Shown piece by piece: positions 25,192 through 30,080 of a stretch of 64,000 nt of DNA; within the stretch, counting starts at the first letter, position 1, and each line of letters begins with the position of its first letter. The DNA is taken from NCBI GenBank assembly GCA_016124845.1, contig WGMW01000013.1:46064-110063 (forward strand), in the 5' to 3' direction. Source of the DNA: Flavobacteriales bacterium. GTDB lineage: Bacteria; Bacteroidota; Bacteroidia; UBA10329. The notes below the pieces were generated by a model. It saw only the letters and a program-made list of their open reading frames with translations, did not search any database and was not told the DNA's origin. Made by a program: the position numbers and the translations under genes.

Positions 25192-25941
25192 ATGTCCAAG
25201 ATCTTTTGGCCGTTCAAAATGCTGTGGAGAGGATGGTTCTTCGTGAGCTGCTTCCTCACGCTGATGCCGTTGTTTCCGTTCTTCTACTATTTCGTTCACA
25301 ACGAAAAGCACTTCAAAAAGGCCATGTTCCTGAAGCGTATCTGGGCACGCATGATCTGTTTCGTGACGGGTGTTTGGAGCACCGTGGAGGTGGAAGAACC
25401 GCTCGTAGATGGCCCGTACATCATCGTTCCCAACCATGTTTCGTTTGTGGATATCGTGCAATCGTACATCGCATTTCCCATCTATTTCCATTACATGGGA
25501 AAGGTACAATTGGGCAAATGGTGGTTCTTCAACATTTTCTTCCACAAGATGAATATCCTGATCGATCGCACGAACCTGCGGGCTTCTTACAACTCGTATC
25601 AGCGCGCGGCCGATGACCTTAAAAAAGGCATTTCCATTGGCGTTTATCCCGAATCGATCATTCCCGATAATCCTCCGAAGATGCTGCCCTTCAAGAACTC
25701 ACCGTTCAAGATCGCCATCGAAGCACAAGTTCCCGTTGTTCCCGTTACTTTTGTGGGCGGCTGGAAAATTCTGCCCGCCAAACCACACGTGTGGGAAGGC
25801 GGTAGACCTGGAGGAACGTTCATCAAAATTCACCGTCCGATTCCTACAAAAGGAATGACCGTGAAAGATGTGGACAGCCTGCGGGACAAGGCACAGGATG
25901 TGATCCGACAAGAACTGAAACGACATGGATATAACGGATAA
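25192..25941 (+). CDS. plsC: 1-acyl-sn-glycerol-3-phosphate acyltransferase (lysophospholipid acyltransferase)
   Basis: HX4D motif (VPNHVSFVDI), N-terminal TM, PlsC-like size. Confidence 0.8.
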   Translation: MSKIFWPFKMLWRGWFFVSCFLTLMPLFPFFYYFVHNEKHFKKAMFLKRIWARMICFVTGVWSTVEVEEPLVDGPYIIVPNHVSFVDIVQSYIAFPIYFHYMGKVQLGKWWFFNIFFHKMNILIDRTNLRASYNSYQRAADDLKKGISIGVYPESIIPDNPPKMLPFKNSPFKIAIEAQVPVVPVTFVGGWKILPAKPHVWEGGRPGGTFIKIHRPIPTKGMTVKDVDSLRDKAQDVIRQELKRHGYNG

Positions 25942-26227
25942 AACGGTTGATGAGCTGGCGCACTTGGCGCGATTGCAGTTTGAAGGCGAGGAAAAAGAGC
26001 GCATCAAGAAGGATCTGAACAAGATCCTCACCTTCATGGAAAAGCTGAATGAGCTTGATACCGATGGCGTGGAACCGCTCATTTACATGTCGGAAGAACT
26101 GAACGTGATGCGCAAGGACGAGAAGAAACAGACCATCACACAAAAGCAAGCACTCAAAAACGCTCCGAAAGCCGATTCAGATTACTTCAAGGTTCCGAAG
26201 GTTCTAAAGAATCCAGATGCTGAATAG
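25925..26227 (+). CDS. gatC: Asp-tRNA(Asn)/Glu-tRNA(Gln) amidotransferase subunit C
   Basis: 100 aa, MDITDKTVDELAHLARLQFEGEEKERIKKDLNKIL... typical GatC. Its last about 55 nt are repeated at 28398..28452. Confidence 0.85.
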   Translation: MDITDKTVDELAHLARLQFEGEEKERIKKDLNKILTFMEKLNELDTDGVEPLIYMSEELNVMRKDEKKQTITQKQALKNAPKADSDYFKVPKVLKNPDAE

Positions 26228-26346
26228 CTCGGATTCGCTTTCGTTCAGAGAAATAATGTTGAAAACGTTTCTTACAAACGGCTGAACGTTTGAAGAAACC
26301 ATCTATTTTTGATAACCATGTTTAAGGTTGCATAACTTGGTTATCC

Positions 26347-27612
26347 ATGAAAGAGTATTATAGCATTTCGGAAGTAGCCGACCTTCTGGGCAAGAGCAAG
26401 GAGACGCTGAGACGTTGGGACAACAACGGAAAGTTGACCGCAGTGCGCGAACCGATGAGCAACTATCGGGTTTACCACAAAGATCAGCTGCGCATTTTCG
26501 ATGAGTTGGCGTTTCTGTTCAATGAGGCTGAAACACAGGACGCGGTCAAAGCAAAACTTGATTATTCGGTTTTAGAATTGTTTGCAGGTGCCGGTGGGCT
26601 TGCCATCGGTCTGGAACAGTCAGGACTGAAATGTGTAGGACTCAACGAGATCGATCATTGGGCAGCTGAAACGCTGAGAAGGAACCGCCCGAACTGGAAC
26701 GTGATGGAAGGGGATGTCCGCAATATGGATTTCTCCGAATTTGAAGGAAAAGTTGATGTGGTCACAGGCGGATTTCCGTGTCAGGCGTTCAGCTACGCTG
26801 GGAAAAAGCTGGGGCTGAAAGACGCTCGCGGAACGCTCTTCTACGAATTTGCGCGCGTGGTACAGCAGACCAGGCCACTGATCTGCATGGGCGAAAATGT
26901 CCGTGGGCTTCTGAACCATGATGGTGGTAGAACGCTTGAAGGTCTGCGCTCCATTTTGGACGAGATCGGGTATCGGGTTCTGGAGCCGAAAATTCTCAAG
27001 GCAATTTTTTATAATGTTCCTCAAAAAAGAGAGCGTTTGATCTTGATCGGCATCAGAAAGGACGTTGATGTCGATTTCCTTTTTCCGAAACCATACAAAA
27101 AGATCTACACCGTAAAGGACGCCCTGAAGGCCGGAGAACTTTACGCCACCGATGTGCCGAAATCTGCTGGTTCCAAATACCCCGAACACAAGAAGAAGGT
27201 CTTAGATCTGGTTCCTCCAGGAGGTTATTGGCGCGACCTTCCAATTGACCTCCAAAAGGAGTATATGCAGAAGAGCTTTTATCTCGGAGGAGGTAAAACA
27301 GGGATGGCACGTAGGATAAGTTGGGATGAACCAAGCCTTACCCTAACATGCAGTCCAGCGCAGAAGCAAACGGAAAGATGCCATCCTGATGAAACCAGGC
27401 CATTTACCGTTAGAGAGTACGCGCGGATACAGACATTTCCGGATGATTGGAAATTTGCGGGCGCTGTTTCACAACAGTACAAACAGATCGGCAATGCCGT
27501 TCCGTGCAACCTTGCCAAAGAGCTCGGTTTTTCATTGGTCCGGTTTCTGAATAGTGCTTATTCTTCCAAGCTCATTGATGCCAGAACACAAAAGACCGTT
27601 GTAAGTGGATGA
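26347..27612 (+). CDS. DNA (cytosine-5)-methyltransferase with N-terminal HTH regulatory domain (type II R-M modification subunit)
   Basis: C5-MTase motifs I (FAGAGGLAIG), IV (GGFPCQAFS), VI (ENVRGL), X (QIGNAVP). First about 55 aa (MKEYYSISEVADLLGKSKETLRRWDNNGKL...) form a MerR/excisionase-like HTH, as in autoregulating M.SsoII/M.MspI-type enzymes. Confidence 0.9.
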   Translation: MKEYYSISEVADLLGKSKETLRRWDNNGKLTAVREPMSNYRVYHKDQLRIFDELAFLFNEAETQDAVKAKLDYSVLELFAGAGGLAIGLEQSGLKCVGLNEIDHWAAETLRRNRPNWNVMEGDVRNMDFSEFEGKVDVVTGGFPCQAFSYAGKKLGLKDARGTLFYEFARVVQQTRPLICMGENVRGLLNHDGGRTLEGLRSILDEIGYRVLEPKILKAIFYNVPQKRERLILIGIRKDVDVDFLFPKPYKKIYTVKDALKAGELYATDVPKSAGSKYPEHKKKVLDLVPPGGYWRDLPIDLQKEYMQKSFYLGGGKTGMARRISWDEPSLTLTCSPAQKQTERCHPDETRPFTVREYARIQTFPDDWKFAGAVSQQYKQIGNAVPCNLAKELGFSLVRFLNSAYSSKLIDARTQKTVVSG

Positions 27613-27647
27613 TGTGACATTGCTTACTTTCACCGTTCATAAACAGC

Positions 27648-28379
27648 TTGAACGGAATGGCAAAACTCAATTGGATCTCTGACGGGAATCTGAACGCAGC
27701 AGTTTCTCACCTGCTTGAAAAGGCGAAAGCTGCAAAATCAGCAGCTGAAAAGGAGTTTGGAAAGAATGTCATAGACCCGTTCTCAGCACTTTTCGAGATT
27801 GCCGCATTCGAATTGAATTATGACGATTGGAAGAAAAGTGAAACCGCGCGTCAGGCACAGAAAACGCTTCAGAATCACGTTGGGGAATTTCATCAACGAA
27901 TATTGGGAAGCGTTGACGGTTGGGAGAACTTGGAAGTTGGAAACGAGGTTGATCTTGCAAATCACAACCGGAAGATCATTGCCGAGATAAAGAACAAGTA
28001 CAATACCATGAAAGGCAGCGACAAGTCTGGTCTTTACCACACGCTCGATGACCTGACAATGAGGAAGTCAAGTAAATTCCGCGGCTATACTGCTTACTAC
28101 GTTACAATTATTCCAAACAGGAAGGCCAAGTTCAATAAGTTGTTTACGCCTTCTGATAAGAGTAAAGGAGCGAAGTGTCCTCCCAATGAATTGATCAGAG
28201 AAATTGATGGGGCAAGTTTTTATGATCTGGCAACTGGTGTCACCAACTCATTGAAAGAACTTTTCGAGGTGTTACCTTCTGTTGTGTCCGAAGTGAGTGA
28301 AGGAAAACTATCCGTTTCTAAAGAAGAGGTGCAACAGTTTTTTGCCGCTGCGTACGGAGTGCTGGAGAAACCAAGATGA
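27648..28379 (+). CDS. type II restriction endonuclease (PD-(D/E)XK fold), cognate to upstream MTase
   Basis: 243 aa directly downstream of MTase. GNEVDL...IIAEIKNK matches the D...(D/E)xK nuclease motif. Sizes (421/243 aa) are reminiscent of Eco47II/Sau96I-type systems, but specificity cannot be established. Confidence 0.65.
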   Translation: MNGMAKLNWISDGNLNAAVSHLLEKAKAAKSAAEKEFGKNVIDPFSALFEIAAFELNYDDWKKSETARQAQKTLQNHVGEFHQRILGSVDGWENLEVGNEVDLANHNRKIIAEIKNKYNTMKGSDKSGLYHTLDDLTMRKSSKFRGYTAYYVTIIPNRKAKFNKLFTPSDKSKGAKCPPNELIREIDGASFYDLATGVTNSLKELFEVLPSVVSEVSEGKLSVSKEEVQQFFAAAYGVLEKPR

Positions 28380-28397
28380 TGAGAAGGGCTCACCGGA

Positions 28398-28452
28398 CCG
28401 ATTCCGATTACTCAAAGCTCCACATGTTCTTAAGAATCCTGATGCTGAATAA
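28398..28452 (+). repeat. degenerate direct repeat of gatC 3' end (remnant KAPHVLKNPDAE* coding segment)
   Basis: Aligns to 26172..26227 with about 80% identity (one 1-nt indel). Immediately followed by the start of the next gene, as expected for the original gatC end. Confidence 0.8.
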
Positions 28453-28458
28453 CTATAT

Positions 28459-28869
28459 ATGACGATCACTATTTCAACCACGGTCGATGCGCCCATTGCC
28501 AAGGCGTGGGAAGTTTGGACCAAACCCGAATTTATTGTTCAATGGAATTTTGCAAGCGATGATTGGTGCTGCCCAAGCGCGGTGAATGACCTTCGACCAA
28601 ATGGAAAATTTTCGTGGAGAATGGAAGCCAAAGACGGAAGTTTTGGGTTTGATTATGGCGGAGATTATGTGGAGGTTCTCGAAAATGAACGCATCGAGAT
28701 GCTATTGGGAGACGGACGAAAGGTGGAGGTTCTGTTTGCACACCAGAACGGCCAGACAATTGTTACCGAGTCGTTTGAGACAGAAGATGTGAACTCGGCC
28801 GAAATGCAAAAACAAGGCTGGTCTGCCATTCTTGGTAATTACAAGAAGTGCGTTGAGGCAAACGCCTGA
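28459..28869 (+). CDS. SRPBCC / AHSA1 (Aha1-like) domain protein
   Basis: 136 aa, ...AKAWEVWTKPEFIVQWNFA... pattern typical of activator-of-Hsp90-ATPase-homolog-like SRPBCC proteins. Confidence 0.65.
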   Translation: MTITISTTVDAPIAKAWEVWTKPEFIVQWNFASDDWCCPSAVNDLRPNGKFSWRMEAKDGSFGFDYGGDYVEVLENERIEMLLGDGRKVEVLFAHQNGQTIVTESFETEDVNSAEMQKQGWSAILGNYKKCVEANA

Positions 28870-28884
28870 CCACGTTCTGAAGCA

Positions 28885-28927
28885 ACAAAAAAGGCCGCTT
28901 CCAACATCTGGAAGCGGCCTTTTCAAT
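28885..28927. terminator. bidirectional rho-independent terminator
   Basis: AAAAAGGCCGCTTCC-aacatct-GGAAGCGGCCTTTT: 12-bp GC-rich stem flanked by A-run and T-run, between convergent genes. Confidence 0.8.
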
Positions 28928-28942
28928 TTCGTAAATCGCTAA

Positions 28943-29353
28943 TCAACAGAACTCATCAAAAGCGGCTGTCAAATTCTCCGCGATCATTTCCGCTGGGCGA
29001 CCTTCAATGTGGTGGCGCTCAATGAAATGAACCAAGTTCCCGTCTTTGAAAAGCGCAATACTCGGACTGCTTGGTGGATAAGGCGCCATGTACTGACGTG
29101 CCTGCGCCACCGCATCTTTATCGAAACCCGCAAAAACCGTAGTTACTCGGTCTGGCGTTTTGCTGTGCTTTACGGCCATTTTCATGGCTGGGCGGGCATT
29201 GCCTGCGGCACAACCACAGACCGAATTGATAAAAACCAACGTGGTTCCATCAGCCTTGATGGCGTTATCAACGTCTTCGGGTGTAAGCAGTTCCTCAACA
29301 CCTGCTGAGGTAATGTCCTGCTTCATCGGTATAACTATTTCTGGAGGATACAT
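28943..29353 (-). CDS. bacilliredoxin (BrxA/BrxB, YphP/YqiW family, DUF1094)
   Basis: Conserved ...GTTLVFINSVCGCAAGNARPA... with the family-defining CGC motif. Confidence 0.8.
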   Translation of the reverse strand: MYPPEIVIPMKQDITSAGVEELLTPEDVDNAIKADGTTLVFINSVCGCAAGNARPAMKMAVKHSKTPDRVTTVFAGFDKDAVAQARQYMAPYPPSSPSIALFKDGNLVHFIERHHIEGRPAEMIAENLTAAFDEFC

Positions 29354-30039: not shown

Positions 30040-30075
30040 CCCCTCTGCCTTCGGCATTCTCCCCCAAGGGGAGAA
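30040..30075. repeat. REP-like palindromic element (copy 1)
   Basis: CCCCTCTGCCTTCGGCATTCTCCCCCAAGGGGAGAA: two hairpins (GCC-TTCG-GC; TCTCCCC/GGGGAGA). Near-identical copy at 38004..38039. Degenerate copy at 7513..7549. Confidence 0.6.
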
Positions 30076-30080
30076 CGTTT

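What the first reader, a model, noticed from the sequence alone, without database searches (positions are those of the whole stretch)
26172..28452. Type II R-M cassette inserted at the gatC 3' end, bracketed by a degenerate duplication of the gatC terminus
- gatC ends at 26227 with the coding segment ...SDYFKVPKVLKNPDAE*.
- After a 2.2 kb segment carrying only a C5-MTase (26347..27612) and a PD-(D/E)XK endonuclease (27648..28379), a second copy of this terminus appears at 28398..28452 (...SDYSKAPHVLKNPDAE*, frameshifted by a 1-nt deletion). Identity is about 80% over about 55 nt.
- The second copy is followed at once (6 nt) by the ATG of the SRPBCC gene, so it looks like the original gatC end and native junction.
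- The copy now fused to gatC would then have arrived with the cassette.
- This matches either integration with long target duplication (described for mobile R-M units) or a 3'-end-replacing site-specific insertion. No recombinase is present in the island.
Basis: seen in the sequence. Interest (0 to 1): 0.75.

Follow-up and report, generated by a model that had tools for sequence, protein, structure and literature searches.

The report
Restriction cassette stacked beside gatC relic
A two-gene restriction-modification cassette sits between the gatC gene and a decaying 55-base leftover of another gatC end; comparison with about 25 related genomes suggests two alternative cargoes of one variable spot were stacked by an imperfect recombination, which is a tidy but ordinary example of a known kind.

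Summary
gatC ends at 26227. A second, frameshifted copy of its last 55 nt lies at 28398-28452 (46/56 identical; alignment score 35 against 11.7±1.3 in shuffles). Between the copies lie only an HTH-fused C5 methyltransferase and an Eco47II-family endonuclease.

Related Flavobacteriales genomes show that the gatC/Brx interval is a cargo hotspot:
- Four lineages have gatC-stop, 5-8 nt, then the SRPBCC gene. This confirms that copy 2 plus SRPBCC is a native-type junction.
- At least five lineages carry the same M-R cassette at the same place, followed directly by the terminator. None has a second gatC end.
- Only this genome has both cargoes.

Six of the nine substitutions between the copies are synonymous-type (P about 0.003-0.017 under neutral decay). 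Copy 2 also shares rare synonymous variants with SRPBCC-linked gatC alleles. The copies are therefore most likely ends of gatC from two lineages, not an in-situ target duplication.

Best explanation: cargo alleles are exchanged through homologous flanks (L175 and L004 show a clean exchange). Here one crossover was illegitimate, near the end of R, so the two cargoes were stacked and a relic was left. Which cargo arrived second is unresolved. This is a known kind of event and of modest interest.

The parts
25925..26227 (+). gatC, intact. It overlaps the end of the upstream acyltransferase gene (25192-25941).
   Evidence: PF02686 2.4e-24 and TIGR00135 3.8e-29. It is 92-99% identical in protein to GatC of L003-L015.
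26172..26227 (+). Copy 1: the functional gatC terminus (…DSDYFKVPKVLKNPDAE, TAG).
   Evidence: The protein tail DSDYFKVPKVLKNP is invariant in the clade.
26228..26346 (+). Leader of the cassette. It has no counterpart in relatives that lack the R-M. It is 96% identical over 98 nt to L085.
26307..26343 (+). Conserved block TTTG-TAACCA-N19-TGGTTA just upstream of the M start codon. Probably the operator/promoter for the HTH domain of M (inferred).
   Evidence: Nearly invariant in all five cassette copies, including two in unrelated genomic contexts, L087 and L088. Reported as inverted repeat I3.
26347..27612 (+). C5 cytosine DNA methyltransferase with an N-terminal MerR-type HTH.
   Evidence: PF00145 1.8e-80, PF00376 4.3e-08, TIGR00675 2.4e-78. 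97% protein identity to L085 and 89% to L083.
27657..28379 (+). Eco47II-family restriction endonuclease. The listed ORF starts at TTG 27648; ATG 27657 is the likely start. Its C-terminus is extended (AAYGVLEKPR*) compared with AAYN*/AAYG* in relatives.
   Evidence: PF09553 1e-55 covering 1-200 of 202 profile positions. Gene call in L001. C-termini compared.
28358..28397 (+). Junction filler. R homology to relatives stops at about 28357 (28361 against L088). This roughly 40-nt stretch matches neither gatC nor the R-downstream spacers or terminators of relatives. It encodes the novel R tail and its stop codon.
   Evidence: no significant match; 13/39 to gatC, P = 0.22.
28395..28399 (.). GGACC, a GGNCC site (the presumed target of the cassette), exactly on the left edge of copy 2. 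It is one of only three such sites in 25.9-29.0 kb.
   Evidence: Its significance is unknown and this was a post hoc observation.
28398..28452 (+). Copy 2: a decaying relic of a gatC terminus (…DSDY[fs]KAPHVLKNPDAE, TAA).
   Evidence: 46/56 identical to copy 1, score 35 against shuffles 11.7±1.3. V>A and K>H fall at residues invariant in all clade GatC proteins, plus a frameshift.
28459..28869 (+). SRPBCC/AHSA1-family gene, intact. It starts 6 nt after the stop of copy 2.
   Evidence: PF08327 3.3e-17. Orthologues 77-87% identical lie directly after gatC in L004, L173, L174 and L175.
28889..28923 (.). Perfect 15-bp-stem bidirectional terminator shared by the convergent gatC-side operon and the Brx-like gene. 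It is the right-hand fixed point of the hotspot.
   Evidence: (I4). Homologous hairpins stand next to Brx in all relatives.
28943..29353 (-). Brx-like thiol-disulfide isomerase gene (PF06491). It is the conserved right flank of the hotspot.
   Evidence: 2.3e-64. Found in the same position in most close relatives (L012, L016, L017 and L019 show no Brx within the flank).

Best explanation
What it is:
- The interval between gatC and the convergent Brx-like gene is a cargo hotspot in this group of uncultured Flavobacteriales.
- Different lineages hold nothing, a small membrane ORF, a DUF4160/DUF2442 pair, a 221-230-aa ORF, an SRPBCC gene, or a compact Eco47II-like type II R-M cassette (leader/operator, HTH-M, R).
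- The window genome is the only one found that holds two cargoes in series: gatC, leader, M, R, about 40 nt of filler, a 55-nt gatC-end relic, SRPBCC, terminator, Brx.

How it most likely arose:
- Cargo alleles move between lineages by homologous recombination in the conserved flanks (gatC and upstream on the left, terminator/Brx on the right).
- In this lineage, one exchange between an 'R-M allele' and an 'SRPBCC allele' had only one homologous crossover.
- The other end was joined illegitimately, between the last codons of R and a point 55 nt before the gatC stop. This is the pattern of homology-facilitated illegitimate recombination. A transient merodiploid followed by deletion would give the same result.
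- The incoming cargo was therefore added rather than swapped.
- One gatC end stayed functional (copy 1). The other was cut off from its gene and is decaying (copy 2). R acquired a new 6-9-aa tail.

Consequences:
- No terminator-like site was found on the + strand between gatC and 28889, so SRPBCC is now probably co-transcribed with M-R.
- Which cargo was resident is unresolved. I lean about 55:45 to the R-M plus copy 1 being the newcomer.

What is shown: the anatomy, the alternative alleles, the absence of the repeat elsewhere, a clean allele exchange in other lineages, and the synonymous bias between the copies. What is inferred: the recombination pathway and the direction.
For: 1. Hotspot with alternative cargoes between the same flanks.
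2. SRPBCC allele: gatC-stop, 5-8 nt, ATG in four lineages, L004, L173, L174 and L175.
3. R-M allele: in L083 and L085/86, gatC is followed by a homologous leader, then M, R, terminator and Brx. In L169, L170 and L171/172, R is likewise followed by the terminator and Brx. None has a second gatC end or SRPBCC.
4. No relative has a duplicated gatC end; best scores are 8-15 against 35 here.
5. The cassette left junction is shared with the R-M relatives (leader 96% identical to L085). The right junction is unique: R homology stops at the last codons and is followed by unmatched filler.
6. Six of the nine substitutions between the copies are synonymous-type, P = 0.003-0.017 if copy 2 had decayed neutrally from an identical copy. 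The three non-synonymous changes hit residues invariant in the clade.
7. Copy 2 shares the rare AAA (Lys) and CCA (Pro) codons with SRPBCC-linked gatC alleles: L173 has both, L174 has AAA, L175 has CCA. Otherwise only L012 has them.
8. Clean allele exchange by flanking homology occurs in this clade. L175 and L004 are 91-93% identical over SRPBCC-terminator-Brx but 74-76% in acylT and nitroR.
9. R-M and SRPBCC divergence from relatives (M 77% nt to L083; SRPBCC 76-80% nt) equals that of housekeeping flanks (73-82%). GGNCC is depleted across the whole clade: observed/expected 0.54 here, 0.65 in close relatives without the R-M, 0.82-0.86 in distant ones. Both cargoes are therefore old residents of the clade, not foreign arrivals.
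10. No recombinase is present.
11. The pathway has precedent: homology-facilitated illegitimate recombination proposed as the route for stacking displaced modules (PMC5361080).
Against: - No donor or pre-event allele close enough (>95% nt) was found, so neither the crossover points nor the direction can be read directly.
- The synonymous-bias test rests on 9 substitutions. It weakens to P of about 0.1 (a hand calculation, not a tool result) if copy 1 also accumulated synonymous changes after a true duplication.
- Copy 1 and copy 2 share GAT-GCT-GAA and a CTN Leu codon. Most relatives lack these, which would also fit a common in-lineage origin.
- The roughly 40-nt filler is unexplained.
- Natural competence, or any other DNA uptake route, in this organism is unknown.
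- All comparators are metagenome assemblies.
Confidence: 0.62

Rival explanations
1. Self-insertion of the R-M unit with a genuine long target duplication (Nobusato/Furuta/Kobayashi class). The cassette entered a gatC-SRPBCC locus and duplicated 55 bp of the target. The copies were identical at birth, and the downstream one then decayed.
For: The locus meets the operational criteria of PMC2853133. R and M are both in the insert. The insert is 2.2 kb, below the 20 kb limit, with no other mobile gene. The direct repeat is longer than 30 bp. The repeat is single-copy in empty-site genomes. The copies share GAT-GCT-GAA and a CTN Leu codon that most relatives lack.
Against: - The same cassette sits at the same site in at least five lineages with no downstream repeat.
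- In two other contexts, L087 and L088, the gene neighbourhood is different; flanking repeats there were not searched for.
- There is an excess of synonymous-type differences (6 of 9; P = 0.003-0.017).
- Copy 2 shares variants with SRPBCC-linked alleles.
- Repeat identity is 82%, against at least 93% in the published cases.
Confidence: 0.13
2. The composite arrangement is ancestral to the clade, and the single-cargo loci derive from it. Recombination between copy 1 and copy 2 deleted M-R, giving gatC-SRPBCC. Other deletions removed the relic plus SRPBCC, giving the R-M-only state.
For: The direct repeats would allow precise excision of M-R and restore a clean gatC-SRPBCC junction. R-M and SRPBCC are each about as diverged from relatives as the housekeeping flanks are.
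Against: - Only one lineage in about 25 has the composite.
- Non-coding sequence is already unalignable between these lineages; the spacers after gatC give no hits. A neutral relic as old as the clade should therefore not still be 82% identical.
- R-M-only loci would need several illegitimate deletions ending at the R stop codon.
Confidence: 0.08
3. Site-specific integration into the gatC 3' end by an element that carries a replacement gatC end (like tRNA- or tmRNA-targeting islands), catalysed by a recombinase encoded elsewhere.
For: The architecture fits: an intact target gene end on one side and a displaced end on the other.
Against: - There is no integrase in the island or in 12 kb around it.
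- The relic is absent from every other occupied or empty hotspot.
- The left edge of copy 2 abuts unmatched filler rather than a defined att core.
- The hotspot cargoes are heterogeneous, with no shared ends.
Confidence: 0.04
4. Metagenome mis-assembly that joined two strain variants, one with the R-M allele and one with the SRPBCC allele.
For: The window comes from a MAG, and both alleles circulate in the clade.
Against: - An independent assembly (Logan, SRR10063242) gives the identical 12.3 kb with 0 mismatches.
- The join is not at shared sequence.
- Copy 2 is truncated, frameshifted and mutated, not a strain-variant copy.
- The R ORF reads through the junction to a new stop codon.
Confidence: 0.02

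Closest known systems
R-M gene complexes 'inserted with long target duplication' (Nobusato et al. 2000; Furuta, Abe & Kobayashi 2010, PMC2853133)
   Same: A compact type II R-M pair with no mobility gene, bracketed by direct repeats longer than 30 bp. The sequence is single-copy at the empty site of related genomes, and the repeat overlaps the 3' end of a flanking gene (as in their H. influenzae cases).
   Different: - The repeats here are only 82% identical with an indel.
- Their differences are biased to synonymous sites, pointing to two source lineages rather than a duplication.
- The same cassette occupies the same site in at least five other lineages without any repeat.
Displacement/stacking of modules at polymorphic loci by homology-facilitated illegitimate recombination: V. 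cholerae T6SS effector-immunity arrays (PMC5361080), and Rhs/CDI orphan tips
   Same: A conserved upstream gene serves as the homologous anchor. The incoming module is added instead of swapped. The old module is pushed downstream.
   Different: - The anchor here is a housekeeping gene (gatC), not a toxin gene.
- The cargoes are an R-M pair and an SRPBCC gene.
- There was a single stacking event, not an array.
- Rhs/CDI orphan tips keeping a remnant of the conserved gene's 3' end is from my own knowledge, not from a paper read here.
Eco47II/Sau96I-type (GGNCC) type II R-M systems with an HTH-bearing C5 methyltransferase (cf. the autoregulatory N-terminal HTH of M.SsoII-type enzymes; own knowledge)
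   Same: A full-length PF09553 endonuclease next to a PF00145 methyltransferase. An N-terminal HTH with a conserved palindrome upstream of M. GGNCC is depleted in the host clade.
   Different: - The specificity and the regulatory role were not tested.
- The HTH is of the MerR type.
- No REBASE comparison was possible.
Resistance of chromosomal R-M complexes to allelic replacement (Handa et al. 2001, cited in PMC3031569)
   Same: The outcome expected there: survivors keep the R-M and also carry the incoming homologous allele, with duplicated flanking sequence.
   Different: That is a laboratory result in E. coli with PaeR7I. Here it is only a possible reading of the footprint, and it applies only if the R-M was the resident.

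Membership tests
Type II R-M system, Eco47II family | C5 cytosine methyltransferase with the full catalytic domain | tested here: met
   PF00145 1.8e-80 covering 2-320 of 324 profile positions; TIGR00675 2.4e-78. The PCQ, ENV and QxRxR motifs are visible in the translation.
Type II R-M system, Eco47II family | Adjacent cognate endonuclease of the Eco47II family, intact | tested here: met
   PF09553 1e-55 covering 1-200 of 202 profile positions. 1736 homologues at E <= 1e-20.
Type II R-M system, Eco47II family | Recognition of GGNCC, with cleavage and methylation activity | tested here: inconclusive
   Only indirect evidence: GGNCC observed/expected is 0.54 in the window and 0.65 in close relatives, against 0.82-0.86 in distant ones. 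CCWGG and CCGG are also depleted. No methylome data and no REBASE comparison.
R-M insertion with long target duplication (PMC2853133 criteria) | Both R and M inside the insert; insert below 20 kb; no other mobile element | tested here: met
   There are 2,170 nt between the copies, holding only M and R.
R-M insertion with long target duplication (PMC2853133 criteria) | Flanking direct repeat longer than 30 bp that aligns to a single copy at the empty site of a related genome | tested here: met
   A 55-56 bp repeat. It is single-copy in L004, L173, L174 and L175.
R-M insertion with long target duplication (PMC2853133 criteria) | The two repeats derive from duplication of the one target sequence | tested here: inconclusive
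   Six of nine differences are synonymous-type (P = 0.003-0.017), and copy 2 carries variants of SRPBCC-linked alleles. This leans against a duplication, but the sample is small.
Integrase-mediated island targeting a gene 3' end | Integrase or recombinase gene in or next to the island | tested here: not met
   None among the ORFs and Pfam-annotated gene calls within 6 kb on either side.
Integrase-mediated island targeting a gene 3' end | The same att-type repeat recurs at independent insertions | tested here: not met
   No second gatC end in any of 18 relatives checked, including L083; sequence downstream of R in the other R-M-bearing relatives shows no gatC-like stretch.
Product of homology-facilitated illegitimate recombination | One junction lies in sequence homologous between the partners, and the other lies at a site without homology | tested here: met
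   The left side is continuous with the R-M alleles and the right side with the SRPBCC alleles. The inner junction at 28358-28397 matches neither partner.
Product of homology-facilitated illegitimate recombination | Uptake of linear donor DNA (competence or another route), and identified donor and recipient alleles | not testable with these tools
   No relative closer than about 90% nt in any cargo was found.

The most novel reading that the evidence does not exclude
The locus could be a natural footprint of a restriction-modification system resisting allelic replacement. In that reading, an incoming gatC-SRPBCC allele from a relative would normally have swapped out the resident M-R by double homologous crossover. 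Loss of M-R kills the cell through post-segregational cleavage. Only a rare recombinant that kept M-R and added the new allele through an illegitimate left join survived and became fixed. The GGACC site exactly at the relic's edge might then mark processing by the resident enzyme. More broadly, some published 'long target duplications' around R-M systems might be two xenologous target copies produced this way rather than true duplications.
Probability: 0.15. Interest if true: 0.55.

Novelty: new member of a known kind. Interest (0 to 1): 0.3.

Why it matters
The locus gives a well-documented natural example, with many empty-site and single-cargo comparators, of how a small integration hotspot between two core genes gains content without any recombinase. 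Alleles are swapped through the flanks, and now and then two are stacked by a one-sided illegitimate join.

It also carries a caution for annotation. Direct repeats around R-M cassettes need not be target-site duplications or att sites. The synonymous-versus-non-synonymous pattern of a coding repeat can help tell the two apart.

Nothing here changes what is known about R-M biology or gatC.

Tried and rejected
- **Extending the repeat leftwards.** 28359-28397 against the 39 nt upstream of copy 1 in eight genomes gave 10-15/39 matches, P = 0.07-0.66. The repeat starts sharply at 28398.
- **Origin of the filler.** I tested whether 28359-28397 is a remnant of the R-downstream spacer or the terminator left arm, or whether terminator and gatC share a microhomology. 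MAFFT suggested this, but local scores are not above shuffles, P = 0.09-1.0. Dropped.
- **SRPBCC scan of metagenome contigs.** It returned only relatives of 60% identity or less, none next to gatC or Brx. The useful SRPBCC comparators came from the protein search plus contig look-ups instead.
- **Recombination breakpoints from sliding identity.** I compared window against L085, L003 and others, and L175. No clean step was seen. gatC is simply more conserved than its neighbours in all comparisons.
- **Direction from the closest relative.** L175 is the nearest on the right flank and has the SRPBCC allele. However, its hotspot segment was itself recently exchanged with an L004-like lineage, so it does not fix the ancestral state.
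- **Sigma-70 promoter scan.** Uninformative, with one hit against 4.1 expected. These are Bacteroidota, whose promoters the scan does not cover.
- **Rfam.** Nothing in 25-30 kb apart from a sub-threshold hit on the terminator.
- **Mis-assembly.** Rejected.
Full report

Yes. gatC occupies 25925-26227 (PF02686 2.4e-24; TIGR00135 3.8e-29). Its last 56 nt (26172-26227) recur at 28398-28452 with 9 substitutions and a 1-nt deletion.

A local alignment of the last 100 nt of gatC against the 3.8 kb downstream scores 35. In 500 dinucleotide-preserving shuffles the mean was 11.7, the sd 1.3 and the maximum 16. Nothing else in the 64 kb window exceeds 17.

The similarity stops sharply at 28398. The preceding 39 nt match gatC no better than chance.

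Between the copies lie only two genes:
- A C5 methyltransferase with an N-terminal MerR-type HTH, 26347-27612 (PF00145 1.8e-80).
- An Eco47II-family endonuclease (PF09553 1e-55). Its start is best placed at ATG 27657.

Copy 2 ends 6 nt before the ATG of an SRPBCC/AHSA1 gene (28459-28869). A perfect bidirectional terminator follows at 28889-28923, then a convergent Brx-like gene. No recombinase or tRNA is nearby.

An independent assembly of run SRR10063242 reproduces 12.3 kb across the island without a mismatch. Mis-assembly is therefore not the explanation.

**2. What do related genomes show?**

A scan of species-representative genomes with GatC returned a tight group of uncultured Flavobacteriales. 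GatC is 91-99% identical in this group and the flanking genes are about 73-82% identical in DNA, with the same synteny of trpS, acyltransferase, gatC, [variable], Brx and nitroreductase.

The variable interval holds one of the following:
- Nothing but about 110 nt with the terminator (L003, L005, L011, L013).
- A 65-aa membrane ORF (an ORF is called only in L007; L006 and L008 have a homologous stretch; L010's contig is too short to tell).
- A 221-230-aa ORF (L009, L015).
- A DUF4160/DUF2442 pair (L014, L015).
- An SRPBCC gene (L004).

Look-ups starting from the endonuclease found the same M-R cassette in this interval in five further lineages: L083/84, L085/86, L169, L170 and L171/172.
- L083 and L085/86 show gatC followed by a homologous leader, then M, R, terminator and Brx.
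- In all five lineages R ends AAYN* or AAYG* and the terminator follows within 2-35 nt.
- None has SRPBCC or a second gatC end.

Two more distant copies of the cassette lie in unrelated contexts (L087, and L088 after a NifU gene). They share only the roughly 40-nt block TTTG-TAACCA-N19-TGGTTA upstream of M, probably the operator for the HTH.

Look-ups starting from SRPBCC found three more lineages (L173, L174, L175/176). In each, the stop of an intact gatC is followed after 5-8 nt by the SRPBCC start, with no R-M.

None of the 18 relatives checked has a second gatC terminus. The window genome alone has both cargoes, with the relic between them.

**3. Where are the junctions?**

The left side is continuous with the R-M alleles. 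From the gatC stop through the leader into M, the window aligns with L085 (leader 96% over 98 nt, M 90% nt) and with L083. The leader has no counterpart in relatives without the R-M.

The right side is continuous with the SRPBCC alleles. This covers copy 2, the short spacer, SRPBCC and the terminator.

The unique junction is internal. Homology of R to its relatives stops at about 28357 (28361 against L088). The window then reads GVLEKPR* where relatives stop. About 40 nt of unmatched sequence lead to copy 2.

**4. Are the two copies a duplication?**

Of the nine substitutions, six are synonymous-type: TCA/TCC, AAG/AAA, CCG/CCA, CTA/CTT, CCA/CCT and TAG/TAA. Three are non-synonymous: V>A and K>H (the latter by two changes).

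The non-synonymous changes and the frameshift hit residues that are invariant in every GatC of the clade and well beyond it. They are therefore decay that followed inactivation.

If copy 2 had decayed neutrally from an identical copy, only 20-28% of changes should be synonymous. Six or more out of nine has P = 0.003-0.017.

Two of the synonymous variants of copy 2 (AAA, CCA) are those found in SRPBCC-linked gatC alleles: L173 has both, L174 has AAA, L175 has CCA. Otherwise only L012 has them.

Without the decay changes the copies would be about 89% identical, which is the usual distance between gatC ends of different lineages here (82-93%).

The simplest reading is that the two copies were functional gatC ends in two different lineages. 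The test is small, and the copies also share GAT-GCT-GAA and a CTN Leu codon. I therefore treat this as leaning against a true target duplication, not as proof.

**5. How did it happen?**

Cargo alleles are demonstrably exchanged through the flanks. L175 and L004 are 91-93% identical across SRPBCC-terminator-Brx but only 74-76% identical in the acyltransferase and nitroreductase genes.

A normal double crossover between an R-M allele and an SRPBCC allele would swap one cargo for the other. The window structure is what results if only one crossover is homologous and the other end is joined illegitimately, here between the end of R and a point 55 nt before the gatC stop.

This pattern is homology-facilitated illegitimate recombination. 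It has been proposed to explain the stacking of displaced modules at other polymorphic loci (PMC5361080). A transient tandem merodiploid followed by deletion would give the same product.

Both cargoes are old in the clade:
- M is 77% identical in DNA to L083, and SRPBCC is 76-80% identical to its relatives. These values match the flanks.
- GGNCC, the site recognised by the family's type enzyme (PMC10305163), is depleted in the window (observed/expected 0.54) and in close relatives without the R-M (0.65). Depletion is weaker in more distant genomes (0.82-0.86).

The event itself must be younger than the splits between the sampled lineages. Non-coding sequence is already unalignable between them, yet the relic is still 82% identical.

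**6. Which cargo came second?**

This is unresolved.

- The nearest relative on the right flank, L175, has the SRPBCC allele. Its nitroreductase is 94% and its BrxC 91% identical in protein, and it shares the loss of an O-methyltransferase gene that all the others have.
- The leader and M are more similar to L085 (96% and 90%) than Brx is (83%).

Points against relying on this:
- L175's hotspot segment was itself recently exchanged.
- No breakpoint could be located in the flanks.

The reverse order, in which gatC'-SRPBCC entered a locus with a resident R-M, gives an identical product. It would fit the known resistance of R-M complexes to allelic replacement (Handa et al. 2001, cited in PMC3031569).

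**7. Comparison with known kinds**

The locus meets the operational criteria of 'insertion of an R-M with long target duplication' (PMC2853133). It differs in three ways: low repeat identity, the synonymous bias, and the recurrence of the same cassette at the same site without repeats. It is not an integrase-type island.

The R-M itself is an ordinary member of the Eco47II family with an HTH-bearing methyltransferase.

**8. Verdict**

- The reading of copy 2 as a displaced native gatC end is supported.
- The proposed insertion mechanisms are not supported.
- The best explanation is a one-off imperfect allele exchange at a cargo hotspot.
- This is a new member of a known kind, of modest interest.

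Noticed in passing
window 26228-28942; L003-L015, L083, L085, L169-L175: The gatC/Brx interval is a cargo hotspot with at least six alternative contents among close relatives: empty, a 65-aa membrane ORF, a 221-230-aa ORF with no Pfam match, a DUF4160/DUF2442 pair, SRPBCC (with an extra 150-aa ORF in L174), and the M-R cassette.
   Followed up: partly
window 28395-28399: A GGACC site (GGNCC, the presumed target of the cassette's own enzyme) sits exactly on the left edge of the gatC relic. None of the gatC alleles has a GGNCC site at the equivalent place (read by eye from those outputs), so the junction or a later mutation created it. There are only three GGNCC sites in 25.9-29.0 kb.
   Followed up: partly
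whole window (1-64000): Several short palindromes are strongly depleted relative to a maximal-order Markov expectation: CCGG 0.27, CCWGG 0.46, GGNCC 0.54 and CCNGG 0.58. This suggests long exposure to several restriction systems beyond the one in this island.
   Followed up: partly
L171 448-1175; L172 67-794: In one R-M-bearing lineage the endonuclease gene is split into a 37-aa and a 190-aa ORF while Brx and the terminator are intact. This is apparently an inactivated R next to M.
   Followed up: no
window 26307-26343; L083, L085, L087, L088: The block TTTG-TAACCA-N19-TGGTTA directly upstream of the M start codon is almost invariant in all five cassette copies, including two in unrelated genomic contexts. 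It is probably the operator/promoter for the MerR-type HTH fused to M, and it marks the left end of the minimal cassette.
   Followed up: partly
L175 1145-2015 vs L004 6206-7103: SRPBCC-terminator-Brx is 91-93% identical between two lineages whose neighbouring genes are 74-76% identical. This is a clean, recent exchange of a hotspot allele by flanking homologous recombination.
   Followed up: yes
window 30040-30080 vs L003-L015, L083, L173: The 11 relatives checked whose sequence reaches past nitroR, other than L175, have a roughly 357-aa O-methyltransferase gene between the nitroreductase and the BrxC-like gene. The window and L175 lack it and continue with orf198 and a Band_7 gene. This shared character marks L175 as the nearest sampled relative on this side.
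   Followed up: partly
window 28398-28452: By hand count from the alignment, the relic is better preserved in its 3' half (2 mismatches in the last 24 nt) than in its 5' half (7 mismatches plus the deletion in 31 nt). This half lies directly upstream of the SRPBCC start, so it may be kept as part of that gene's translation-initiation region.
   Followed up: no
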